From the IMG/VR virus record IMGVR_UViG_3300046513_000108, positions 26,391 through 90,390 of that record: a stretch of DNA of 64,000 nt. One strand, written 5' to 3'. A model generated the notes under the pieces. The model saw nothing but the letters and a program-made list of their open reading frames with translations. It did no database searches and was not told the origin of the DNA. Each line of letters starts with the position of its first letter. Positions within the stretch are counted from its first letter, which is position 1. Below, in pieces: positions 1 through 36,082 of this stretch. The stretch comes from a virus. Lineage: Duplodnaviria; Heunggongvirae; Uroviricota; Caudoviricetes. Both the position numbers and the translations under genes were made by a program.

Positions 1-596
1 GGATGTGTTACCTTTACTCTAACCGATTGAGCACTTAAATTAAGAAATGCAACAGTATCTACAATAGACGAAAAAGTAACTACAGCATCAATTGTATTAG
101 AGTTTGTTGTCTGACTTTGAACGCTTTGATCGAACATCTTCCAACGATTTGTACTTCCTGTATTAATCCAATTTGTCCCGTCATCTGTAGAAGGATTTTT
201 GTTATAATTCAAAGAAGCTTTAGCTGTATGCGTGCCAGATTGAGTGCCAGTTGTATTGATCGCTGCACCACCAGGAGTTGCAGAAAGGTTGAAAGTATTT
301 GCTGTAGGAGCAAGAATGTAGTATACTGTTCCTGCTACAATACCTGTAGGCAGAGCACCCGTAGTGGATGCTTGCCAAGGTGTGTTTGCCACTTGTCCAT
401 GTCCTGTCATTGTTACAACAGCCGGGGAGGCAATAGTTATGGTTACTGTACTTGTCACTCCAAGTTTAGATTGGAATGTACGATGGCTATTTGTTGCGTC
501 ATACTGTACAATATCCCCAAGAACATATACTGTGCTAGCACTCCACGCTGTTGCACTGGTAGCACTCACGTTACTTGAGACTAATGCACTGTCCAC
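1..596 (-). CDS. tail protein immediately downstream of the tape measure; 5' portion only, continues beyond window position 1
   Basis: open minus-strand frame from about 623 to the window edge (…VDSALVSSNVSATSATAWSAS…NRWKMFDQSVQSQT…), AAGGAG RBS at 630-635; no ATG follows the RBS, so the start (GUG 596 or AUU 623) is uncertain; absent from the ORF track because it runs off the window. Confidence 0.5.
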   Translation of the reverse strand, partial: MDSALVSSNVSATSATAWSASTVYVLGDIVQYDATNSHRTFQSKLGVTSTVTITIASPAVVTMTGHGQVANTPWQASTTGALPTGIVAGTVYYILAPTANTFNLSATPGGAAINTTGTQSGTHTAKASLNYNKNPSTDDGTNWINTGSTNRWKMFDQSVQSQTTNSNTIDAVVTFSSIVDTVAFLNLSAQSVRVKVTH

Positions 597-6668: not shown

Positions 6669-7085
6669 TTATTTCTTTCTAAAGGATCGTAACATATTCA
6701 TTAAAGCTAGTGCTTTTCGTTTCTCAGCTTCTTCGTCAATTTCATCCTCGTTATACAGGGAGAATGGACGTTTCCGTGAGGGGTCTGTTGCTTTATGATA
6801 TTCAGAACAATAAGCTTCAGACATTTTTCTAAGTGTTTCAATTTCCCATAAAGTAAGAGACAATTTATTTTCTAAACGCCATGCACGTTGCTCTTGCCAA
6901 GAGATAGGGATTAGCCCCATACCTGTAGACATTGCTTGACCCATATCAAAGAAAAAGCCAAGCATCGGACTGAACGCAGAATCGAATTCTGGTAATTCAG
7001 CGTCAGCTTGGCCTTCTGAGTTAGCTTGTAACTCTTCTAATCTTGATTGGTTCTTTCCTTTTGGAACAGATGAATACCATCCCAA
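6669..7085 (-). CDS. putative tail assembly chaperone (lambda gpT-like position)
   Basis: 138-aa ORF directly upstream of the tape measure; call is by synteny only. Confidence 0.4.
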   Translation of the reverse strand: MGWYSSVPKGKNQSRLEELQANSEGQADAELPEFDSAFSPMLGFFFDMGQAMSTGMGLIPISWQEQRAWRLENKLSLTLWEIETLRKMSEAYCSEYHKATDPSRKRPFSLYNEDEIDEEAEKRKALALMNMLRSFRKK

Positions 7086-15920: not shown

Positions 15921-16777
15921 TAATCACCTTTATGTTTAGAAATCACATAAGCCTGAAACTCTTCTTCAGTCTTAATTCCATCAATCAGTCCAAGCTCCAA
16001 GGAGTCCTTAGACATGAAGGTTTTTGCCTTAGTGGCCTTAATAGCCTCCGCTGACAAACCTATATATTTAGACACATGAGAAACAAAGTTCTCATACAAC
16101 GCATCCACCTTGTACTGCAAATCTTGCAAGAATTCTTTTTTAAAACTTCCATCTTCTGCATATGGAATTTTTTGCTCTCCTGCTGTTACAAACACTCGCT
16201 TGTACCCCTGTTGTTCCATTGCCTTAGAGGTATCTAGTAGACTAACCAAAACACCAATGGAGCCTGTATCTGCATCAGGGTGAGCAAACACTTCATCACA
16301 AATAGAGAGCCAAGCATAAGCAGCAGAAGCCGCCATACCGCCGTTATATCCGTAGATTTTTGCACCGGCTTTATCAGCCATTTCCCGTACAGTAGAGGCT
16401 GATTGGAAACAATTGAAAGCTTCTCCACCTCCACTATCTACACTCATGATGATAGTAGTAACACCTGCATCCAACATTTCACTTGCTTGTTCTACCAAAG
16501 TGGAGTATGCTGTACCTACTTCTCCACACAACGTAACAACAGGTTTATTGGTAAGAGTGCCGTCAATATTTAGAACACCAATTTTCTGCTTCTTGTTGTA
16601 GAAAAGTTCAGGTTTTGCAGGAGGGGTATCTTCTGCTTTTCCATCTCGATACAGGAGAACCCCAGAATTACGATCTTGTAAATATTGGTCAATCGGAGCA
16701 AAAGCTTCTGCTGTAATAAGCTGCGGAGTAGAATAAATACTCTGAGTAAGTCGCAGCAAAATATTTTGTTTTTTCAT
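15920..16777 (-). CDS. prohead protease, S49 (SppA/ClpP-fold) family
   Basis: …VDSGGGEAF…GGMAASAAYAW… serine-protease signature; lambda gpC position. Confidence 0.8.
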   Translation of the reverse strand: MKKQNILLRLTQSIYSTPQLITAEAFAPIDQYLQDRNSGVLLYRDGKAEDTPPAKPELFYNKKQKIGVLNIDGTLTNKPVVTLCGEVGTAYSTLVEQASEMLDAGVTTIIMSVDSGGGEAFNCFQSASTVREMADKAGAKIYGYNGGMAASAAYAWLSICDEVFAHPDADTGSIGVLVSLLDTSKAMEQQGYKRVFVTAGEQKIPYAEDGSFKKEFLQDLQYKVDALYENFVSHVSKYIGLSAEAIKATKAKTFMSKDSLELGLIDGIKTEEEFQAYVISKHKGD

Positions 16778-16786
16778 TTGTTTCCT

Positions 16787-18268
16787 TTATGCTGCATTTT
16801 CAGAATTATCAGATGATTTGTCTCTACCTGCTGGCTTGTTAGATGTACCATTACCAGAGCCTTTAGCCATTCCATCTCCCGATCTAGATTGCATGTCCTC
16901 TGGGAACAGTTTTTCATCTAACACAGTGTCTTCAGGAAGAGGTTGAAGCCCCAGAGACTCAAGAACTTTATTAACAACTTCCAGTGTGCGCGGCAGAATG
17001 CCAACAGACTTAGTACGCTGTACAAATTTAGAAATTTCTTCCAAATCTGCATCAAGGATATCCCCGTACTCAAAAGTACCCATTCTATCTGTATTCCAAC
17101 CATTTAACTCGTAAATAGAACGCATTAAGTCTTGATTGAGAACAGAACGAATTTCTTTCAAACGGTATTCTACAGTCATGGATAGTAAATTCTCTTTGCT
17201 GGATGCTAAGGAATAAGAACCTTGTTGATTTGCACCAAGCTTGATTACGTCAACCCCTAATGCAACCAATATGTCTGTCTGCAAAGCTGCAATTACTTCA
17301 GGTATGTTAAAAGACTTCCCATATTTAGCTTCTAACAGTTGAATTTCTACAGTTTTATTGGCATTCTCATCATACATTAAAGGGTAGACAATACCAGATT
17401 GTGTTCCTTTTACAAGGTTGGTTGCCATATCAATAAACTGTTGTGCAGCAGCTTTTTCTGAGCTTGTTGCATCAGGACTCAACAGCTTTGGCGGAATACC
17501 AATAGCAGGAATCCCCTGTAAATCTTTAGCAATTCCCAACATTAATTGATCTTGCAATAAACTTAATTGTTTATAAGGTAGGAATACAGCCTTCAATAAG
17601 CTCTGACCTTGTGGATTTCCGTTCGTACTGTCAGCAGAAAACAATAAGAATTTTTCCCTGTCAATTTGAAGAACTCCATCTTTATTCTTGATATTCTCAT
17701 ATCTCCACTGGTTTTCCAGATTTTGAAGCGACTGCCCAATACCTACAAGATTTCTTCCATCTTCAGAGTAGTACCATTTTGCAATAGTCTCTTGACTACG
17801 GGGACTTAATTTACGAAGACCAATCTTACCATCATTATATTTGCTTCCATTCTTCTTTAAGCGTCTGCGAAATACTTTTTCACTTACTTGAAAGCCATAT
17901 TTTAAATATGTAGTTACTTCAGTAATGAATTGCCCCCAAGAATGTTCCATATCAGTCATACACGACTGCACAAAAACACAACGTTCTTTTTCTACGTCTG
18001 TTGCATTCTCAGGAGGACAAACATACCAAGGCACAGAATTAACCATTAAGTTATAAACATTGAAGGCAGAGCACACCGTAGGGTGTGCAGACATTTCATT
18101 TACAACTTGTAACAAGTTAGGGTATTGGAATACTTTATTACGCTCTGCGTAAATTTGGTTATTAGCTATACGTAGGCCGGAAACACCTTGTTCGCCTAGA
18201 GCAATGCGGGGTAGTGCTGTATCAGGGTCAGCTTCAAGAGCCGAACTTTGAGGCTTCTTTGTCGCCAT
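16787..18268 (-). CDS. portal protein
   Basis: 493-aa ORF between terminase and protease genes; acidic C-terminal tail. Confidence 0.75.
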   Translation of the reverse strand: MATKKPQSSALEADPDTALPRIALGEQGVSGLRIANNQIYAERNKVFQYPNLLQVVNEMSAHPTVCSAFNVYNLMVNSVPWYVCPPENATDVEKERCVFVQSCMTDMEHSWGQFITEVTTYLKYGFQVSEKVFRRRLKKNGSKYNDGKIGLRKLSPRSQETIAKWYYSEDGRNLVGIGQSLQNLENQWRYENIKNKDGVLQIDREKFLLFSADSTNGNPQGQSLLKAVFLPYKQLSLLQDQLMLGIAKDLQGIPAIGIPPKLLSPDATSSEKAAAQQFIDMATNLVKGTQSGIVYPLMYDENANKTVEIQLLEAKYGKSFNIPEVIAALQTDILVALGVDVIKLGANQQGSYSLASSKENLLSMTVEYRLKEIRSVLNQDLMRSIYELNGWNTDRMGTFEYGDILDADLEEISKFVQRTKSVGILPRTLEVVNKVLESLGLQPLPEDTVLDEKLFPEDMQSRSGDGMAKGSGNGTSNKPAGRDKSSDNSENAA

Positions 18269-26167: not shown

Positions 26168-26708
26168 TATCTTTTTGACAAGTGATACACATTTTGGTCA
26201 TGTAGGAGTGACAAAGTTTCTTGCTCCTAATGGGGTTGATAAACTTCGCCCTTGGGACACTATCGAAGAAATGGATGAAGCCCTTATTGAGAATTGGAAT
26301 AAAGTTGTACGTCCACAGGACAAGGTGTATCATCTAGGAGATGTTGTAATCAATCGTCGTGCTCTGCCTACTCTGGCACGCCTGAATGGTACAAAGATTC
26401 TGATTAAAGGTAATCATGACGTATTCCGGCTGGAAGAGTACACTCCGTATTTCAAGGATGTACGGGGCAGTGGTGAACTGGCAGGATATGTACTAACACA
26501 CATTCCTATTCATCCACAAAGCTTAGAGCGTTGGAAGGGGAATTTCCATGGGCATTTGCACGCTCATAGTGTTTTGCACACATTCCAAGAGGGAGCTATT
26601 CTTAAAACAAGACATCACCCGCGTTATCTCTGTGTCTCTGTAGAACAAACAAGCTTTACACCTATTAGCTTGGAAGATGCTATCAAAAAATGGGAGAAAC
26701 AACAATGA
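26160..26708 (+). CDS. calcineurin-like metallophosphoesterase (candidate RNA 2',3'-cyclic/3'-phosphatase)
   Basis: MPP motifs SDTHFGH, GDV, GNHD and GHLH. Confidence 0.75.
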   Translation: MSNIFLTSDTHFGHVGVTKFLAPNGVDKLRPWDTIEEMDEALIENWNKVVRPQDKVYHLGDVVINRRALPTLARLNGTKILIKGNHDVFRLEEYTPYFKDVRGSGELAGYVLTHIPIHPQSLERWKGNFHGHLHAHSVLHTFQEGAILKTRHHPRYLCVSVEQTSFTPISLEDAIKKWEKQQ

Positions 26709-27001
26709 AATATTACAAGCGTGATTTTCTGAATAAAGCTGAAGGTATGGCTGCTTTTGAAGCCGATATTACTTGGGATAACGACGATGGGCATGATTAT
26801 GGTATGTCTGCTTCCTTCTGTATTACAGATTGCAGCCGTAAAGTATCACTAGACTTCTCTCCATATGGTGATGAGGAAAATAACAGCTTTTACAAACTAA
26901 CTAAGCTGATTGAAGAACTGTCTGCATTCAAAGAGAAATTTGAAGAAATTCACAAGGCGCGTGCAGAATACAAAGAGGCAAAGGAAAAAGATGAAACCTG
27001 A
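26705..27001 (+). CDS. hypothetical protein
   Basis: GGGAGAAA RBS; 98 aa. Confidence 0.5.
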   Translation: MKYYKRDFLNKAEGMAAFEADITWDNDDGHDYGMSASFCITDCSRKVSLDFSPYGDEENNSFYKLTKLIEELSAFKEKFEEIHKARAEYKEAKEKDET

Positions 27002-27512
27002 AATCTCTCTCTACAGCGGGGGCAACTTCTGCTTTACAGAACCAGATAGCAGCAACTACACTGTAAAGGATATTGCACTGAACCTCTCCAATCTCAGTAG
27101 ATTTACAGGTTCTCTTGAGAAGCCTTACAGCATTGCACAACATTGTGTATATGTCTCTCTGCTTGTTCCAGAGGAATATGCTATGGAAGCTCTTATGCAC
27201 GATGCTGGAGAAGCCTTCCTTGGAGATGTTTCCTCTCCTCTCAAGCAACTGCTTGCAGACTACAAGAAACTGGAACAGAGTGTAGAAGCTTCTATTTTCA
27301 AAAAATATGGCTTGCAGTTTCCCATGCATCCAGAAATCAAGAAAGCTGACATGCGTATGTTTGTGAGCGAGCGAATTGACTTACAGCCTAATTGTTCTGT
27401 GCGAGGATACAACTTTGAGAGAGCACCTTTTAAGGTGGTTCCTTGGGGACACAAGAAAGCTTATGAACAGTTTTTGAAGAGGTTTGATGAACTTGGAGGA
27501 GTGATTAAATGA
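26991..27512 (+). CDS. HD-domain phosphohydrolase (YfbR-like)
   Basis: H…HD…GD pattern (AQHCVYVS…ALMHDAGEAFLGDVSSPLK); AAGGAAAAAG RBS. Confidence 0.65.
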   Translation: MKPEISLYSGGNFCFTEPDSSNYTVKDIALNLSNLSRFTGSLEKPYSIAQHCVYVSLLVPEEYAMEALMHDAGEAFLGDVSSPLKQLLADYKKLEQSVEASIFKKYGLQFPMHPEIKKADMRMFVSERIDLQPNCSVRGYNFERAPFKVVPWGHKKAYEQFLKRFDELGGVIK

Positions 27513-27709
27513 AGAAAATTATTATTGTAAATAAATCTGATGTAGTTGATGAAGAATTGTTGCTTGCAGCTTTCATGAACGCAATCCCTCACCACAAAGC
27601 AAGCGAGAAAGGTGCTGTGCTACTCTACGAAGGAAAATTTGGCGTTGTTACAAGGAAGAACAAAAACAACGACTCTTTCTATTTCTATAATGTTGAAGAG
27701 AGGGTGTGA
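27509..27709 (+). CDS. hypothetical protein
   Basis: 66 aa; overlaps the upstream stop. Confidence 0.5.
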   Translation: MKKIIIVNKSDVVDEELLLAAFMNAIPHHKASEKGAVLLYEGKFGVVTRKNKNNDSFYFYNVEERV

Positions 27710-27918
27710 TGGCAATCATTGGATTTATCTTATTGTGTGTTGTGCTTCTGTATTTCCTAGCAGTGGCATGTTTTGGAATCTTCTCTGTAGGATTTAGTAT
27801 TGCAATGGGAGGTACAAAGACATATTGGTATTTGGTTCCTATTACCGGATTGCTGCTAGATTTGTGGTTGTTCTGGCTGCTGTTCCAACATGCCCCTTTT
27901 ACTATTTCTCTAATTTGA
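27706..27918 (+). CDS. small membrane protein (2 TM)
   Basis: 70 aa with two hydrophobic helices. Confidence 0.5.
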   Translation: MMAIIGFILLCVVLLYFLAVACFGIFSVGFSIAMGGTKTYWYLVPITGLLLDLWLFWLLFQHAPFTISLI

Positions 27919-27988
27919 TATGGCTGTATTAACAATCAAAGAGCACAAGAGTATAGTATAACGTTTAACAGCTACTAAATACTGTAAT

Positions 27989-28017
27989 TTGACAATACCT
28001 GTTTCACAGATTATAAT
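27989..28017 (+). promoter_or_regulatory. consensus sigma70 promoter
   Basis: TTGACA, 17-nt spacer, TATAAT; both hexamers perfect. Confidence 0.55.
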
Positions 28018-28033
28018 TCTCCTATTAAACAAC

Positions 28034-28063
28034 GAGGGAACCTTTGTGTTCCCTCTTTCTATT
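28034..28063 (+). terminator. hairpin GAGGGAAC-N6-GTTCCCTC with a U-tract; leader attenuator or terminator of the upstream unit
   Basis: perfect 8-bp stem followed by TTTCTATT; sits inside the ORF-track start of the HNH ORF. Confidence 0.4.
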
Positions 28064-28073
28064 GGAGAATACA

Positions 28074-29273
28074 TTGAATCAAGAGAATTATAGGCCACGT
28101 AAATACGTTTTTGAAGTAGGTCAAATATACCCCACAAATCATTGGGGTGAAGTAGAAGTGCTAGATGTTGTAAACTCAAACAATATCAGAATTAAATTTT
28201 TAAATACAGGTAACACCAAATCTTGTCGTAGCTCAGACCTTTCTGCTGGTAATGTCAGAGATGACAAGCTGTACAAGAAACAAGGCAATCCTTCCTCTAT
28301 CCCCTCTCCAGCTAAAGATAAATCATTCATACATGCTGGCACAGTGTTTCTAACAAACTTATATGGAGAGGTTGTAGTTGTAGAGTATGTCAATGGTAAA
28401 AATATTATTATCAAATTTACCAACACAGGTAACATTCAAACAGTTCAAAAAGATGCTTTAAAGAAGGGGCTTGTTCATGATATCAAAGAACGAAATAGGA
28501 TATCTAAGGAGAAAGAAAAACAAAGAAAGCTTTCCTTAAAATTACAAAAGGAAGAAAAGAAGAAAAACACATTAAGAAAGAGGCAGGAAAAGAAAGAGGC
28601 AAAGAAAGCTGAAGCTGTGCAAAAGAGGGCGGAAAAGAGAAAACTTAAAGATGAGGAACTGCTGTCTGTTGTTGGACTAGAGTTTTCTGATAAGTTAGAA
28701 ATGAAATTTTCTATTGTTTCAAGAGATTTGGAGACAGAACTATGCACCATCCGATATGAAGAATCTGGAAACGAGTATGAATTTACGTTCAAAAATATTG
28801 TTGGTGGGCAGTATGACGTATATGATAGGGGTAGTTCTGACTTTGAAAAGAAGTATAAACAATATTCTAAAACACGCTCTGTGAATTGGTACGAAGAGAA
28901 TAGAGAAAGACTTCTAGAAAAAGCTCTTAAGTACCAAAAGGACAATCCTGATAAAGCAAATCATTACAACCGAATCCGTCGAGGTAAGCGTAAAAATACC
29001 GAAGGAACTCACACACAAGAAGAAGTGATTGAATTGCTAGTACAACAAGATAACAAGTGTGCTTGTTGCAACACTTCATTTTTGACAGTGAAAAAACATC
29101 TTGACCACATTCATCCAATCAATCTTGGTGGCAGCAACTGGATTACTAATCTTCAATGGTTGTGTGACTTCTGCAATCTTGTTAAAAATGATTCCCACCC
29201 TGATGTGTGGTTAGAATATAGTCAGTCTGAGGAATTCAAAGAGAGGCGCATGAAAAGACTCTTGACAGTATAA
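28074..29273 (+). CDS. HNH homing-endonuclease-like protein with duplicated N-terminal module
   Basis: C-terminal CACCN…HLDHIHPINLGG…NLQWLCDFCN HNH motif; two N-terminal repeats (YGEVxV…I(R/I)IKF(L/T)NTGN); Lys/Glu-rich linker; TTG start with GGAG RBS chosen because the upstream hairpin overlaps the track start. Confidence 0.65.
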   Translation: MNQENYRPRKYVFEVGQIYPTNHWGEVEVLDVVNSNNIRIKFLNTGNTKSCRSSDLSAGNVRDDKLYKKQGNPSSIPSPAKDKSFIHAGTVFLTNLYGEVVVVEYVNGKNIIIKFTNTGNIQTVQKDALKKGLVHDIKERNRISKEKEKQRKLSLKLQKEEKKKNTLRKRQEKKEAKKAEAVQKRAEKRKLKDEELLSVVGLEFSDKLEMKFSIVSRDLETELCTIRYEESGNEYEFTFKNIVGGQYDVYDRGSSDFEKKYKQYSKTRSVNWYEENRERLLEKALKYQKDNPDKANHYNRIRRGKRKNTEGTHTQEEVIELLVQQDNKCACCNTSFLTVKKHLDHIHPINLGGSNWITNLQWLCDFCNLVKNDSHPDVWLEYSQSEEFKERRMKRLLTV

Positions 29274-29290
29274 AATCTAAACGGTATAAT
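29262..29290 (+). promoter_or_regulatory. consensus sigma70 promoter for the recombinase gene, with a TCTAAACG motif in its spacer
   Basis: TTGACA, 17-nt spacer, TATAAT; both hexamers perfect. Confidence 0.55.
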
Positions 29291-29320
29291 TCCTTCATAA
29301 ATTCACCATTAGGAGTTTGT

Positions 29321-29980
29321 ATGAACATCATTGGGTTGTGCCGTGTTTCCACAGAGGAACAAGGGGAGAGCAGGAACGGGTTAGAGGCCCAACGAAAAGA
29401 GATTGAAGTATGGGCCTCTCAGAACGGATATACAATTGTCTCCATGATTGAAGAAATCACTTCTGGCTCTCTCTCTGTGCAAGATAGACCTGTATTGCAG
29501 TCTGCCCTATCTCTTGCCCGTAAGATGAAATGCAAGATTGTAGTGTCTAAAGTGGACAGGATTAGTAGGGATGCCGCCGTTATTCACAACCTGATGCAGA
29601 AGAAAAAGGTTGTAATTTCTGTTGCGCTCGGAGAACAAGCTGACAGCTTCGTAGAGCATATTTATGCAGGGCTTGCTGAAAAAGAAAGGAAAATGATTGG
29701 AGAGAGGACTAAGGCAGGGTTAGCTGCTGCCAAAGCTCGTGGTGTAGTTTTAGGTAATCGCACCAATCTCCCAGAAGCTCGTAACATTGCTGTAAAAAAT
29801 ATCAAAGCAAAAGCTGATAGGTTTGCTGACAAGCTTCGCCCCACTATCGAACGTATGGTGAGGGACAAAATGAGCTTCAAAGCGATAGCTTCGGAGTTGA
29901 ATGCAGGAGGGACTACGACAGCTAGAGGCGGTTTGTGGTATTCTCAGACGGTTATTAATTTAGTATCCCGCTGGAAATAA
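29321..29980 (+). CDS. small serine recombinase (resolvase/invertase family)
   Basis: N-terminal catalytic motif GLCRVSTEEQ (Ser-10); about 140-aa catalytic domain plus a C-terminal HTH. Confidence 0.85.
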   Translation: MNIIGLCRVSTEEQGESRNGLEAQRKEIEVWASQNGYTIVSMIEEITSGSLSVQDRPVLQSALSLARKMKCKIVVSKVDRISRDAAVIHNLMQKKKVVISVALGEQADSFVEHIYAGLAEKERKMIGERTKAGLAAAKARGVVLGNRTNLPEARNIAVKNIKAKADRFADKLRPTIERMVRDKMSFKAIASELNAGGTTTARGGLWYSQTVINLVSRWK

Positions 29981-29997
29981 CTTAAATTTGTTGTGCA

Positions 29998-30033
29998 AAA
30001 GCCCTTTGGAGAAATCTGAGGGGCTTTTTATTT
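29998..30033 (+). terminator. rho-independent terminator
   Basis: GCCC…GGGGCTTTTTATTTGTGCT; the 3' half is identical to the terminator at 24082. Confidence 0.55.
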
Positions 30034-30371
30034 GTGCTAAATTTTTTATAAAATTTTTTAGAAATCAAGCTATTTCATATAGTGAAAATATCTGTTGTAG
30101 AAATATTTTGTGTTGTTGGTGTGCAACATTTTTTCAGAGTTTTGTGGAAAATGCTCACAGATACGGGAGGGATTTAACAGGATACTTCATTTATGTATTG
30201 TACATTTCTAGCTTTTATAAAATATCAATAGACGTTCAACGATACCCGCTCCAAAGTCCTTCAGAACGCGTCAGATCAACCTGTATTCAACGATCGTTTA
30301 CGCTTCCTTATCACCCTACATGGCCACAACAGAATGCCCCTTAAGCTCTTGATTTCAAATGAGTAAATAAT

Positions 30372-30387
30372 CTAAACGGGCGTTTAG
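30372..30387. promoter_or_regulatory. 16-bp perfect palindrome CTAAACG-GG-CGTTTAG; candidate recombinase or regulator binding site
   Basis: the same 8-mer TCTAAACG recurs at 29276 (forward) and 30563 (reverse). Confidence 0.3.
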
Positions 30388-30732
30388 TTCTTATTCGGTT
30401 AATGGATTCCCTGTGGATAACTGGCCTATCAACCTGATCCTAAAGACCTCTATAGATATAAGCACCTGTAGCTGCGAGGAATGTTGCTTTGGGGACACTA
30501 TGTGTTGATTATTTGCAATAGTGTTGCATAGAAGTAACATTTGGCTGTAACTGTTAAAGAGTCGTTTAGACTGTTACTTATATCCGGTGCCTCTAGCAAG
30601 AAGGAGGTGCAAGTGTTTAATATATAGGTCTTTCCCGATACACACTACATCTAGTTGTTATAGAGAAATGTTGCCTAAATGTAGTAGATACACTATATAA
30701 GCGTACTAGATAGGTTAGTGTGAACAGTATTG

Positions 30733-30773
30733 CACAAAAGAAAAGGGGCATTCCCCGTTAAGAGATATGCCCC
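30733..30773 (-). terminator. rho-independent terminator ending the long minus-strand early unit
   Basis: minus strand GGGGCAT-N15-ATGCCCC followed by TTTTCTTTTG. Confidence 0.5.
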
Positions 30774-30915
30774 TGATAGTGAATCATGCATCTTTTAGCC
30801 AGAACTCGGCATATGTTACAGGGATAAAGCCTATCCTCATGCACCATGCTTTATACGCCATATACACCATAAACTTTTTAGTATTCATAATAAATCCCCC
30901 TTTTAATAATAACAT

Positions 30916-31230
30916 TTAAAGAAATTCAGCAAATGCCCCTATTGCCATCCTAGCAGGCTTAGTCGTGTCGTCTTTAAAACTAATCCTGACATCTCCTTTC
31001 ACGTCCCTTTTAACTATCGCATAGAGCAATCCGCTCTCCTCGTCATACACTTCAGCCATGGATGCTGCCAAACGCTGTTCTACGCTGCCGTAGTCGCCAT
31101 GCTGCATATGTAGATAGGCATTAGCGACAGCCCTGTCTACATCGGATGCACGATTGATCTTTACAGGATTGCGATAATCCTTGAGGACATAATACTTAGT
31201 GGTTACGCTTCTAGCGTTTACAGTGCGCAT
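30916..31230 (-). CDS. hypothetical protein
   Basis: 104-aa ORF; last gene of the minus-strand array. Confidence 0.55.
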   Translation of the reverse strand: MRTVNARSVTTKYYVLKDYRNPVKINRASDVDRAVANAYLHMQHGDYGSVEQRLAASMAEVYDEESGLLYAIVKRDVKGDVRISFKDDTTKPARMAIGAFAEFL

Positions 31231-31234
31231 ATTG

Positions 31235-31435
31235 TTATTCCTCGATTTTATTCAAAAGCTTGTATTGTTTCCACTCTTCAGCAGTCATATAAACCGCATA
31301 CATGTACGGGATAGCCTGTTTCCTTTCCTCGTCTGTTCCATACATCAACATGTTGTAATGCTTTTGGCACAGACCTGTCTCATGAGTAAGGCCCGGAATA
31401 CTCTTGGCTTGTTTGCAACCACAAAGCTTAATCAT
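31235..31435 (-). CDS. hypothetical protein
   Basis: 66 aa, tightly packed. Confidence 0.5.
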   Translation of the reverse strand: MIKLCGCKQAKSIPGLTHETGLCQKHYNMLMYGTDEERKQAIPYMYAVYMTAEEWKQYKLLNKIEE

Positions 31436-31438
31436 GGC

Positions 31439-31759
31439 TTACTCCTCAGAAGAGTATTCTTCCATTCCGAAATTGCGCCTTTCTTCAGGCGTCATTAGTT
31501 CATAGCAATATGCCCATAAATCCCCGTCTTGATATAACGTCCATTTATTCCCGTCTTTGGTGTAGCTGGCGTTATTTAAAACATCTTCCCATTCTTCCCA
31601 ATATTCCTCGTGATCCGGGCCAGCGTTAAGGACTTCTTTAACGTCACTCTTGACGTTCCATTGTGCCATATCGTAATTAATGGCAAAGCGTTGCGGGACA
31701 TAGATACCTTGATTGCCGTCTACCAACAGGACGACAGCAGGGAGAGATTTATTATTCAT
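31439..31759 (-). CDS. hypothetical protein
   Basis: 106 aa. Confidence 0.55.
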   Translation of the reverse strand: MNNKSLPAVVLLVDGNQGIYVPQRFAINYDMAQWNVKSDVKEVLNAGPDHEEYWEEWEDVLNNASYTKDGNKWTLYQDGDLWAYCYELMTPEERRNFGMEEYSSEE

Positions 31760-31997
31760 GATTAAATCCTTTCTTCATAATAACGCTGTAATCGTTCTTT
31801 ACGTCATTCCATTTAGACAGCGTAACGCCATAGGACGGGTTAGGCTTATTCCATGCATCAATGCCCGTGTTAGCAGCCATGTACGCTTTTGTAGCCCGTG
31901 AAAGGCTGTCTCCTAAGTAGATGAGGGAATTCATGCCACAGGGGACCGTTTCTGTGCTGTCATTGCGGTCCACACGGTATTTATTAGTCATTTTCAT
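31752..31997 (-). CDS. hypothetical protein
   Basis: 81 aa, overlaps neighbours. Confidence 0.5.
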   Translation of the reverse strand: MKMTNKYRVDRNDSTETVPCGMNSLIYLGDSLSRATKAYMAANTGIDAWNKPNPSYGVTLSKWNDVKNDYSVIMKKGFNHE

Positions 31998-35424: not shown

Positions 35425-36082
35425 ATTCATCCCGAATGGCTAGTGTAGTGGGCGCTTATGTCATCCCGACATTAGACGTTTTCCCAAGTAGTGTTTTTTC
35501 CGTCTAGCATCTTAGACGTTTGGCGCTCCCCTTGTTTGTACTGTCATCCCGACAGGGCTACTAAAGGATCAAAGCGGTTTTTGCTCAGTTAGATAGAAGG
35601 AGGATTTAGGGCTGGTAACAAACAACATTAGCGCCATGTCTACTCTACTTCTACTCGTAACCTTGGGGTTTCTTCTGCCCCGCACTACAAAACATCTACT
35701 ACAGGACGAATATTAACCTGTACTACTGTTATGCGCAATACCCTACACAAGAAATTTTCAAATTATTTTTATTGTGTCTCTCTTTGTCCCTCGCGCCTTG
35801 CCTGTACAAGACAGCGCGCCCGCACGCGTAGCAATATCCGTGCCAGCCTGATTTATTGACACTGTATGAAAATACAGCAAAACGCGATAGAGGCGTTTTT
35901 TAGGTATGGTTGATACCGTGCCATACCCTGCTGTGGATAACCTCCTGTATCCCCCTTAAAACGCGTCCTATTGGATGCCATTGTGGATAACTTCAGAGGA
36001 AAAATGAGTGTTTTTGAACGTTTTATGTAAATGCCTCTGTATGTCTCATGTAAATTTACATGAAATTTTATGGTTATCCACA
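35425..36082. promoter_or_regulatory. regulatory hub or candidate origin: three DnaA boxes (35932-35940, 35982-35990, 36074-36082), three ATCCC-loop mini-hairpins (35425-35437, 35459-35471, 35542-35554), a GGTATGG/CCATACC inverted repeat and a CATGTAAATTTACATG palindrome (36046-36061)
   Basis: direct reading of an 860-bp non-coding gap. Confidence 0.4.

What the first reader, a model, noticed from the sequence alone, without database searches (positions are those of the whole stretch)
29262..30570. Serine recombinase framed by TCTAAACG motifs: candidate recombination or invertible-switch sites
The 8-mer TCTAAACG occurs three times around the 219-aa resolvase/invertase-family gene. One copy is forward at 29276-29283, inside the spacer of the gene's own perfect TTGACA-17-TATAAT promoter. 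A second lies inside the 16-bp perfect palindrome CTAAACG-GG-CGTTTAG at 30372-30387. A third is inverted at 30563-30570. Chance expectation for three or four hits of a 7-8-mer in 1.3 kb is far below 1. The outer copies are in inverted orientation and bracket the recombinase gene plus 600 bp of non-coding DNA. That recalls Hin-type invertible segments that carry their own recombinase, or a res-like multi-subsite. A small serine recombinase is unusual in a lytic-looking phage.
Basis: partly seen in the sequence, partly recalled or inferred. Interest (0 to 1): 0.6.

Follow-up and report, generated by a model that had tools for sequence, protein, structure and literature searches.

The report
Autoregulated phage recombinase, single crossover site
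A Felix-O1-like virulent phage encodes a small DNA-rearranging enzyme whose recognition motif occurs as a half-site in its own promoter (probably self-repression) and as one perfect two-armed site nearby, which fits a device that joins or resolves genome copies and not the flip-switch first proposed.

Summary
The sequence facts are correct. TCTAAACG lies at 29276(+), 30371(+) and 30563(-). The promoter is a perfect TTGACA-17-TATAAT, and CTAAACG-GG-CGTTTAG at 30372-30387 is a perfect palindrome.

Two of the three copies are real protein sites. A matrix built only from the dyad arms of other phage lineages ranks the promoter copy first of 128,000 positions in the window. About 13 related lineages keep a half-site on the recombinase core promoter. 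Nine of them keep one head-to-head dyad with a 2-bp non-palindromic centre about 300-400 bp past the gene, and the arms co-vary with the promoter copy in diverged lineages. The third copy is weak and specific to this lineage.

The invertible-switch and res-like readings fail. There is one full dyad in about 82 of 90 kb. No accessory sites lie within 420 bp. Eleven assemblies and all relatives are collinear.

Best reading: an autorepressed, catalytically intact small serine recombinase with one stand-alone crossover site, acting between two genome copies. The site lies in the clade's one large convergent non-coding gap. In a Felixounavirus, the corresponding gap holds the 613-bp terminal repeat. 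The biological role is inferred, not shown.

The parts
28044..29273 (+). Upstream gene. A 409-aa protein with a C-terminal HNH endonuclease domain. Its last codons carry the -35 box of the recombinase promoter.
   Evidence: Pfam HNH_5 5e-10 and HNH 1e-5 at residues 339-386. Called as a gene in 10 assemblies.
29262..29290 (+). Sigma-70-type promoter of the recombinase gene, TTGACA-17-TATAAT.
   Evidence: 12 of 12 consensus matches. Equivalent promoters sit upstream of the gene in relatives.
29273..29283 (+). Half-site AAATCTAAACG inside the promoter spacer. Probable operator for autorepression. It has no second arm.
   Evidence: Rank 1 of about 128,000 positions with a matrix built from the dyad arms of other lineages only. 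A half-site overlaps the core promoter in about 13 lineages, although its position and orientation differ.
29321..29980 (+). Small serine recombinase gene, 219 aa, with RBS AGGAG at 29311-29315.
   Evidence: Pfam Resolvase 2e-26 plus weak PF07508. R8, S10, D79, R80, R83 and E122 are invariant or nearly so in 80 homologues. AlphaFold model pLDDT 91.5. Foldseek matches serine recombinase catalytic domains.
29997..30028 (+). Intrinsic terminator ending the plus-strand gene block.
   Evidence: 14-pair stem followed by a T run.
29981..30783 (.). An approximately 800-bp non-coding gap between convergent gene blocks. It is conserved as a feature in the clade, including a relative that lacks the recombinase.
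   Evidence: No gene called here in 10 assemblies. No Rfam match. The same gap exists in L002-L006, L009, L188 and L192, and in Pseudomonas phage vB_PsaM_M1 at 16474-17339 without a recombinase. It is the top TGTT[AG]-rich stretch of the window.
30368..30391 (.). Head-to-head dyad TAATCTAAACG-GG-CGTTTAGTTCT. The perfect palindrome is 30372-30387 and the central dinucleotide GG is at 30379-30380. This is the candidate crossover site.
   Evidence: The only matrix-defined dyad in the 64 kb and in a further 18 kb of the genome. The exact palindrome occurs once in the 89.6-kb contig of this lineage. A positionally equivalent dyad with a 2-bp non-palindromic centre is present in L002-L006, L009, L188 and L192. 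It is invariant in 11 assemblies.
30412..30420 (-). Perfect DnaA box TTATCCACA, 21 bp to the right of the dyad.
   Evidence: L002 has two at the same place, and L188 has three in its gap.
30547..30577 (.). Third motif copy (8-mer at 30563-30570, minus strand) inside an imperfect palindrome GTAACTGTTAAAGAGTCGTTTAGACTGTTAC. It is a degenerate, lineage-specific element of unknown role.
   Evidence: Matrix score 9.2-9.3, rank 17. No counterpart in L002-L009. A SNP lies directly beside it, at 30572, among the 11 assemblies.
30735..30756 (-). Probable terminator of the minus-strand block: GGGG-AATG-CCCC followed by TTTTCTTTTG on the minus strand.
   Evidence: Read from the sequence. Longer hairpins followed by the same TTTTCTTTTGTGCAAT tail occupy the same place in L003 and L004. 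It fell below the scan's 5-pair limit.

Best explanation
The gene encodes a catalytically intact small serine recombinase. Its C-terminal domain recognises the motif A(A/G)A(T/C)CTA(A/T)ACG. One copy of the motif, a half-site, overlaps the gene's own strong sigma-70 promoter, so the accumulating protein most likely shuts off its own transcription. Two copies arranged head to head around a 2-bp asymmetric centre (GG) form the single crossover site, 390 bp past the stop codon in the large non-coding gap where two gene blocks converge. A dimer should bind this dyad, two dyads should synapse, and cutting at the central dinucleotide followed by subunit rotation should exchange the arms. The genome carries only one such site and no accessory sites. 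The partner must therefore be the same site on a second genome copy: a sister molecule, the next unit of a concatemer, or the other terminal repeat. The outcome would be fusion or resolution of genome units, or circularisation, and not inversion. This works like a simple one-site system such as P1 Cre-loxP or a plasmid multimer-resolution site. Shown here: the motif, its two conserved placements, the single copy of the dyad, the intact catalytic residues and the absence of inversion. Inferred: binding, autorepression, cleavage at GG and the biological role.
For: Conserved catalytic residues and a confident serine-recombinase fold. A matrix from the dyad arms of other lineages ranks the promoter copy first and the two dyad arms third and eighth in the window. 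A half-site overlaps the core promoter in about 13 lineages with 48-100% identical recombinases, even though it moves between the spacer, the start site and the -35 side. One dyad lies 300-400 bp past the gene in nine lineages. Its arms co-vary with the promoter copy in L192 (CCTGTAGACG/CTTACAGG) and L188 (ATCAAATG/ATCAAACG). The arms vary without keeping base-pairing (L006), so the element is a protein site and not an RNA hairpin. All central dinucleotides are non-palindromic: GG, CC, AC, GT, GA, AG. There is one dyad in about 82 of 90 kb and no accessory sites. Distant relatives (33-45% identical) on small plasmids, a genomic island and metagenome contigs carry AAACG-NN-CGT(T/A)T dyads or split arms on their own promoters. 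In Felixounavirus MH571750 the exact 613-bp terminal repeat lies in the analogous convergent non-coding gap (PMC4837284; PMC6454146). This window's gap shares that gap's strand-biased TGTT[AG] richness and is the only large convergent gap seen.
Against: No binding, cleavage or recombination has been observed. The physical ends of this clade are unknown, so placing the dyad in a terminal repeat is by analogy only. A close relative (vB_PsaM_M1) has the gap but no recombinase, so the enzyme is dispensable for the clade. Six lineages with the gene in another position ('type B') show promoter half-sites but no dyad within 3.5 kb. About 8.5 kb of the genome was not scanned. A half-site may bind only weakly. 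Virulent phages with terminal repeats have no known need for site-specific resolution.
Confidence: 0.5

Rival explanations
1. Hin/Gin-type invertible switch. Recombination between the inverted outer copies (29276 and 30563), or between the dyad and the third copy, flips a segment carrying the gene or a promoter.
For: The outer 8-mers are inverted. The third copy lies in an imperfect palindrome 185 bp from the dyad. The recombinase is distantly related to Gin.
Against: The promoter copy has no second arm in any lineage. The third copy is weak and not conserved. Eleven assemblies and all relatives have one orientation. No gene lies downstream of the 190-bp segment that a flipped promoter could drive, because the flanking blocks converge.
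Confidence: 0.04
2. The dyad is an attP site and the small recombinase is an integrase, like the resolvase-like integrase of Ralstonia phage RSM. The phage would integrate into a matching host site.
For: One simple site next to a recombinase is the attP layout. Small serine recombinases can integrate phages (PMC3816273). PHROGs also matches an integrase family.
Against: No relative above 40% identity was found in 185,579 bacterial species genomes. The clade belongs to the virulent Ounavirinae. No repressor or other lysogeny gene was noticed among the genes annotated. No tRNA-like sequence is present in the gap.
Confidence: 0.12
3. The protein acts mainly as a DNA-binding regulator. The promoter half-site is its operator. 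The dyad is a second operator or roadblock that controls converging transcription, replication or packaging in the gap.
For: The promoter placement is the best conserved feature. Type B phages show promoter sites without a nearby dyad. DnaA boxes adjoin the dyad in W and L002.
Against: All catalytic residues are conserved across 80 homologues, which a pure repressor would not need. The dyad has the 2-bp non-palindromic centre typical of crossover sites.
Confidence: 0.12
4. The recombinase and the neighbouring HNH endonuclease form a selfish, mobile cassette. The sites are its targets or footprints and do not serve the phage.
For: The gene is absent from vB_PsaM_M1 and sits at two different genome positions. 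An HNH gene always or often adjoins it. In five lineages that HNH protein carries a copy of the recombinase's DNA-binding domain.
Against: The dyad, the promoter site and the intact enzyme are maintained over 48-100% protein divergence. No cassette boundaries or target duplications were seen.
Confidence: 0.1

Closest known systems
Tn3 / gamma-delta resolvase with res
   Same: A small serine recombinase with an N-terminal catalytic domain. Its binding sites overlap its own promoter, which gives autorepression in Tn3 and gamma-delta (established knowledge). The crossover site is a dyad with a 2-bp centre.
   Different: There is no three-subsite res. The single dyad has no accessory sites within 420 bp. 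The promoter copy is a lone half-site 1.1 kb away. There is no transposase. Sequence similarity is weak (E about 1e-4). The C-terminal domain is a three-helix module matching the start of Pfam 'Recombinase' PF07508, not the short resolvase helix-turn-helix.
Hin / Gin / Cin DNA invertases with hix / gix / cix sites
   Same: Best sequence match among solved structures is Gin (2e-7). The site format is alike: arms of about 11-12 bp around a 2-bp non-palindromic centre. From memory, the hix half-site TTATCAAAAACC resembles AAATCTAAACG.
   Different: Invertases need two full sites in inverted orientation plus a Fis enhancer. Here there is one full site, no observed inversion and no adjacent tail-fibre or other switchable gene.
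P1 Cre-loxP and plasmid multimer-resolution sites (functional analogy only)
   Same: One simple site per genome lies next to the recombinase gene. The proposed action is between two genome copies or terminal redundancies, to circularise or resolve units.
   Different: Cre is a tyrosine recombinase and is unrelated in sequence and chemistry. P1 is temperate and packaged by headful. This clade is virulent and, by analogy with its relatives, has short exact terminal repeats.
Large serine integrases (TP901-1, Bxb1, phiC31)
   Same: Closest folds for the catalytic domain. The alignment runs on into the start of their recombinase domain. They also use simple sites with non-palindromic central dinucleotides and no accessory sites.
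   Different: This protein has 219 aa, against more than 400. It lacks most of the recombinase domain, the zinc ribbon and the coiled coil that govern attP/attB choice.
Uncharacterised 'recombinase family proteins' of small alphaproteobacterial plasmids (for example pSM103mini and pMaD11) and of defence-linked islands
   Same: They are 40-47% identical over the full length and have the same length. Where the DNA was read, the promoter carries the same kind of motif: AATCCAAACG arms on the promoter of pSM103mini, and TTATACG-GA-CGTATAA in a Herbaspirillum island next to a Pycsar-type gene. The link between small serine recombinases and defence systems is described in PMC13552941.
   Different: In those elements the full or split dyad lies on the promoter itself. 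In this phage lineage the promoter keeps one arm, and the full dyad lies 1.1 kb away in the convergent gap.

Membership tests
Small serine recombinases (resolvase/invertase superfamily) | N-terminal catalytic domain with the nucleophilic serine and the conserved Arg/Asp residues, followed by a long helix E | tested here: met
   Pfam PF00239 2e-26. R8, S10, D79, R80, R83 and E122 conserved in 80 homologues. Model with strands and helices of the resolvase fold and helix 109-139. Foldseek probability 1.0 to Sin, TP901-1 and IS607 catalytic domains.
Small serine recombinases (resolvase/invertase superfamily) | C-terminal DNA-binding domain that recognises inverted half-sites around a 2-bp centre | tested here: inconclusive
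   A three-helix C-terminal domain is predicted, and a conserved dyad with a 2-bp centre matches the promoter half-site. Binding itself was not measured.
Hin/Gin-type invertible-segment system | Two full crossover sites in inverted orientation flanking the segment | tested here: not met
   One dyad in the 64-kb window and in about 82 of 90 kb. The promoter copy is a half-site, and the third copy is degenerate and not conserved.
Hin/Gin-type invertible-segment system | Both orientations of the segment occur in populations | tested here: not met
   Eleven assemblies with an identical recombinase, and all related lineages, are collinear. Assemblies are consensus sequences, so rare inversions are not excluded.
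Hin/Gin-type invertible-segment system | Fis-bound recombinational enhancer in cis | not tested
   No reliable sequence test was available.
Tn3/gamma-delta-type resolvase-res system | A res of one crossover subsite plus accessory subsites clustered within about 120 bp next to the gene | tested here: not met
   No further half-sites conserved within 420 bp of the dyad in seven lineages. The motif copies are 1.1 kb and 190 bp apart.
Tn3/gamma-delta-type resolvase-res system | Binding sites overlap the recombinase promoter (autoregulation) | tested here: met
   A half-site lies within or abuts the -35/-10/+1 region in about 13 lineages. Repression is inferred.
Large serine integrases | More than 400 aa, with a full recombinase domain, zinc ribbon and coiled coil | tested here: not met
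   219 aa. Only a weak partial PF07508 match at residues 178-215. The model ends after three short helices.
Phage integrase with attP (temperate lifestyle) | Integrated copies in host genomes with the phage split at the site | tested here: not met
   No relative above 40% identity in one genome for each of 185,579 bacterial species. The true host may be unsampled.
Ounavirinae-type genome with short direct terminal repeats in the convergent non-coding gap | Exact terminal repeat of about 600 bp located in that gap | not testable with these tools
   Shown for MH571750 and reported for UAB_Phi87 (PMC4837284). For this clade only circular-looking assemblies were available, and no reads.

The most novel reading that the evidence does not exclude
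The dyad lies inside the short direct terminal repeat of this virulent Felix-O1-like clade. Each virion DNA would then carry two directly repeated crossover sites at its ends. The early-expressed, self-limiting recombinase would circularise the incoming genome, or cut unit circles out of concatemers. This would be a serine-recombinase counterpart of Cre-loxP in a lytic terminal-repeat phage. The neighbouring HNH proteins that carry the same DNA-binding domain would act on the same site.
Probability: 0.2. Interest if true: 0.75.

Novelty: new variant of a known kind. Interest (0 to 1): 0.45.

Why it matters
Small serine recombinases are annotated in hundreds of virulent phages, but their substrates and roles there have not been worked out. 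This locus gives a concrete, testable pair: a 219-aa enzyme and a 24-bp site, with a built-in operator and natural specificity variants in relatives. If the site lies in the terminal repeat, it would show a new way for a lytic phage to process its genome ends. A compact recombinase that needs no accessory sites and has a short site would also be a useful genetic tool. The HNH proteins that borrowed the recombinase's DNA-binding domain show how such modules are exchanged between enzyme classes.

Tried and rejected
- Nucleotide searches of the phage collection with the locus found nothing, either near or distant.
- Rfam on the gap found nothing at E up to 1.
- The exact palindrome with a free centre, scanned in viral contigs, gave 82 hits. 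Most look like chance. One unrelated contig group has a recombinase homologue 2-3 kb away.
- A second degenerate dyad pattern gave 6 hits, none near a recombinase.
- A generic screen for dyads sharing a 7-mer with the promoter in 96 distant loci had too high a background (14 hits against 6.9 in controls) and was dropped.
- The phi92-like homologue (VEcB, 31% identical) shows no such motif.
- RNA hairpin or terminator reading of the palindrome: rejected, because the arms diverge without compensatory changes in L006 and L009.
- Replication origin reading of the gap: only one perfect DnaA box here, against a cluster of three at 35.9-36.1 kb. Left open.
- The SNP boundary just right of the dyad was considered as evidence for crossover. 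The same pattern is not seen among L003-L005, so it is treated as inconclusive.
- The window ORF 117-578 could not be looked up and is probably spurious.
- About 8.5 kb of the genome could not be fetched.
Full report
**Observation.**
The 8-mer TCTAAACG is at 29276-29283 (+), 30371-30378 (+) and 30563-30570 (-). The whole 64-kb window has 5 copies against 1.48 expected, and no shuffle reached 5. The promoter at 29262-29290 matches TTGACA-17-TATAAT at 12 of 12 positions, and the first copy fills its spacer. The second copy is the left arm of the perfect palindrome CTAAACG-GG-CGTTTAG at 30372-30387. The ORF 29321-29980 encodes 219 aa with the Pfam Resolvase domain (2e-26) and weak matches to HTH_38 and to the start of PF07508 'Recombinase'.

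**Context.**
- The major capsid protein is 66% identical to that of Pseudomonas phage vB_PsaM_M1, which is classified in Ounavirinae, the Felix O1 group. Five tRNA genes, PhoH, a Clp-like protease, RNA ligase and polynucleotide kinase fit such a virulent myovirus.
- The window matches a roughly 90-kb metagenomic genome.
- The recombinase is the last gene of a plus-strand block. After a terminator at 29997-30028, gene callers leave 29981-30783 empty, and then a minus-strand block ends.
- Rfam finds nothing in this gap.
- The upstream gene (28044-29273) is an HNH endonuclease.

**The protein.**
R8, S10, D79, R80, R83 and E122 are invariant or nearly so in 8 close and 80 wider homologues. The AlphaFold model (pLDDT 91.5) shows the resolvase catalytic fold, a long helix E (109-139) and a three-helix C-terminal domain. 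Foldseek places the catalytic domain nearest to TP901-1 integrase, IS607 transposases and Sin. Large serine integrases align over more of the chain. By sequence, the nearest solved relatives are Gin, Sin and gamma-delta resolvase, but only weakly. It looks like an active enzyme of a little-studied branch.

**Two of the three motif copies are real sites.**
- Eight related viral loci with 48-73% identical recombinases, six more from other assemblies and ten assemblies with the identical protein were compared.
- In W, L002-L006, L009, L188 and L192 ('type A') the gene is followed by the same kind of gap. About 300-400 bp past the stop codon there is one head-to-head dyad with a 2-bp centre. Examples are ATCGAAACG-GG-CGTTTAAT (L002), ATCTATACG-CC-CGTTTAGGT (L004), ACCTAAATG-GG-CGTATAGAT (L009), ATCATATG-AC-CATTTGAT (L188) and CCTGTAGACG-AC-CGCTTACAGG (L192).
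- A position matrix built only from the dyad arms of lineages other than W ranks the W promoter copy first among about 128,000 positions of the window. It ranks the two W dyad arms third and eighth, and the third copy seventeenth.
- Every lineage has a half-site on the recombinase core promoter, although the placement shifts:
  - in the spacer next to -10 (W, L002);
  - at the transcription start (L003-L006, L009, with two direct copies in L006);
  - inverted next to -35 (L188 and the 'type B' loci L007, L189-L191, L193).
- Where the dyad arms have drifted (L188, L192), the promoter copy has drifted in the same way.
- The arms change without preserving base-pairing (L006, L009), so the element is a protein site and not an RNA hairpin.
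- All centres are non-palindromic (GG, CC, AC, and GT, GA, AG in distant relatives). This is what a crossover overlap that sets polarity looks like.

**The motif is a family trait.**
- Relatives only 33-47% identical carry the same kind of site on their own promoters:
  - CTAAACG-AC-CGTTTAG 81 bp upstream in L169;
  - TATCCTAAACG-GT-CGTATATGATA in the promoter spacer of L117;
  - ACTACGAAACG-GT-CGTATGGTAGT in L170;
  - TTATACG-GA-CGTATAA over the -10 box in a Herbaspirillum island;
  - GTAAACG-AG-CGTATAAT in Allochromatium;
  - AATCCAAACG arms flanking the -10 box on the 4.3-kb plasmid pSM103mini, where the gene precedes repA.
- More than 2,100 homologues exist.
- In the phage collection, 383 records have one, many of them virulent Escherichia myoviruses. 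The gene is therefore not unusual in lytic phages.

**Why not an invertible switch or a res site.**
- The promoter copy never has a second arm.
- The third copy (30563-30570) lies in an imperfect palindrome (30547-30577). It scores low, has no counterpart in L002-L009 and is flanked by a SNP.
- The window contains exactly one matrix-defined dyad.
- A further 18 kb of the same genome adds none.
- The exact palindrome occurs once in the 89.6-kb contig of this lineage.
- No accessory half-sites are conserved within 420 bp of the dyad in seven lineages.
- Eleven assemblies with the identical recombinase are collinear, and the stretch from 100 bp upstream of the gene to 30447 is invariant among them.
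- All related lineages share the same order and orientation.
- Because the flanking blocks converge, a flipped 190-bp segment would have nothing to drive.

**Most likely mechanism.**
The recombinase is made from a consensus promoter and, as it accumulates, occupies the half-site on that promoter and represses itself. This is inferred, by analogy with Tn3 and gamma-delta resolvase. A dimer binds the dyad, two dyads synapse, and the DNA is cut at the central GG and exchanged (inferred). With one stand-alone site per genome, the partner must be on another genome copy, so the products are fused or resolved genome units, or circles. Simple systems that recombine any two cognate sites, as opposed to topologically filtered res systems, are described in PMC9943657.

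**The terminal-repeat lead.**
- Felix O1-type phages have short exact terminal repeats: 608 bp in UAB_Phi87 (PMC4837284) and 613 bp predicted for vB_EcoM-Ro111lw (PMC6454146).
- In the latter's record (MH571750), the first and last 613 bp are identical. They lie in a 1.7-kb non-coding gap between convergent gene blocks. That gap is rich in strand-biased TGTTA/TGTTG repeats, 28 against 5.
- The gap studied here is the top TGTT[AG] stretch of the window, with 11 per 750 bp against a mean of 2.9.
- It is the only large convergent gap seen, because the other convergent junction is about 160 bp.
- It exists also in vB_PsaM_M1, which lacks the recombinase.
- If the terminal repeat of this clade lies here and includes the dyad, virion DNA would carry two direct copies at its ends, and the enzyme could circularise it. 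This rests on analogy, and the termini were not determinable from assemblies.

**Rivals.**
- Integration (attP) is possible. It is disfavoured by the virulent clade and by the absence of relatives above 40% identity in 185,579 bacterial species genomes.
- A purely regulatory protein is disfavoured by the fully conserved catalytic residues.
- A selfish cassette is suggested by three things: the gene's absence from M1, its two genome positions, and the adjacent HNH genes. In L003, L004, L005, L009 and L192 the upstream gene is an HNH motif fused to a copy (37-43% identical) of the recombinase's helix-E end and DNA-binding domain. In L006 it is a diverged recombinase paralogue lacking the R83 equivalent. 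Against this, the long-term maintenance of enzyme and sites argues for a function.

**Open points.**
- Type B phages have promoter half-sites but no dyad within 3.5 kb.
- The 20-bp core of L003-L005 seems flipped in place relative to the other lineages.
- Among the 11 assemblies, SNPs begin 58 bp to the right of the dyad, while the 4.1 kb to the left is almost invariant. This may or may not reflect crossover at the site.
- About 8.5 kb of the genome was not scanned.

**Verdict.**
The invertible-switch and res-like interpretations are not supported. This is a new variant of a known kind: a compact, self-regulated serine recombinase with a single simple site in a virulent phage. Its role is unproven, and a resolving or circularising function is the best guess.

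Noticed in passing
window 35932-35940 (-), 35982-35990 (-), 36074-36082 (+); also 30412-30420 (-): Three perfect DnaA boxes (TTATCCACA) lie within 150 bp, inside or next to a small minus-strand ORF, and a fourth lies 21 bp right of the dyad. That is four perfect boxes in 64 kb against about 0.5 expected. This may be a replication origin or a DnaA-titrating element. Relatives L188 and L002 carry such boxes in the convergent gap.
   Followed up: partly
L003:5472-5936, L004:5466-5936, L005:5484-5936, L009:5475-5930, L192:3000-3455: The gene just upstream of the recombinase encodes a protein of about 150 aa. It has an N-terminal HNH nuclease motif fused to a C-terminal segment that is 37-43% identical to recombinase residues 121-217 (the end of helix E plus the DNA-binding domain). 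It may be an endonuclease that reads the same motif.
   Followed up: partly
L006:5293-5913: A tandem, strongly diverged paralogue of the recombinase: 206 aa, about 25-28% identical, Pfam Resolvase 4.5e-11. The R83-equivalent arginine is replaced and the linker is missing, so it is possibly inactive or regulatory.
   Followed up: partly
window about 30766: A 19-bp tandem duplication polymorphism (ATGCCCCTGATAGTGAATC) is present in 4 of 11 assemblies that share the identical recombinase.
   Followed up: no
window 30448-31800 compared with 26321-30447: Among six near-identical genomes, the 4.1 kb left of the dyad has 2 SNPs. SNPs start 58 bp right of the dyad and reach tens per 200 bp, with large indels beyond 31.8 kb. 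The haplotypes are mosaic, which suggests frequent recombination in the early-gene arm.
   Followed up: partly
L047:4227, L067:6870, L068:6771, L048:4775, L078:56, L054:6201, L015:2862: An unrelated group of viral contigs carries the identical 16-bp palindrome CTAAACGGGCGTTTAG at the 3' end of a 210/211-aa ORF, 2.1-3.1 kb from a 32-35% identical recombinase. Upstream of that gene, CTTTAGGCTTAGCG resembles the extended dyad arm.
   Followed up: partly
L003-L005 about 6929-6952 compared with L006 and L009: The 20-bp core dyad appears inverted in place. The flipped L003 core matches L009 at 17 of 20 positions, against 13 of 20 unflipped. The centre is CC instead of GG, yet both flanks stay collinear.
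   Followed up: no
window 28044-29273: The 409-aa HNH protein has two N-terminal repeats of about 55 aa (pattern G-E-V-x-V...N-x-x-I-x-F-x-N-T-G-N). These are probably DNA-binding modules of a homing endonuclease.
   Followed up: no
window 117-578 (+): This ORF is probably spurious. It lies inside a 377-aa minus-strand ORF that continues the structural block, and no such product is on record.
   Followed up: partly
L198:5573-9833 (Herbaspirillum sp. SJZ107): A 47% identical bacterial relative sits in an island bounded by a tyrosine integrase, next to a gene with a Pycsar-type transmembrane effector domain. This agrees with the reported link between small serine recombinases and anti-phage defence genes (PMC13552941).
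   Followed up: no
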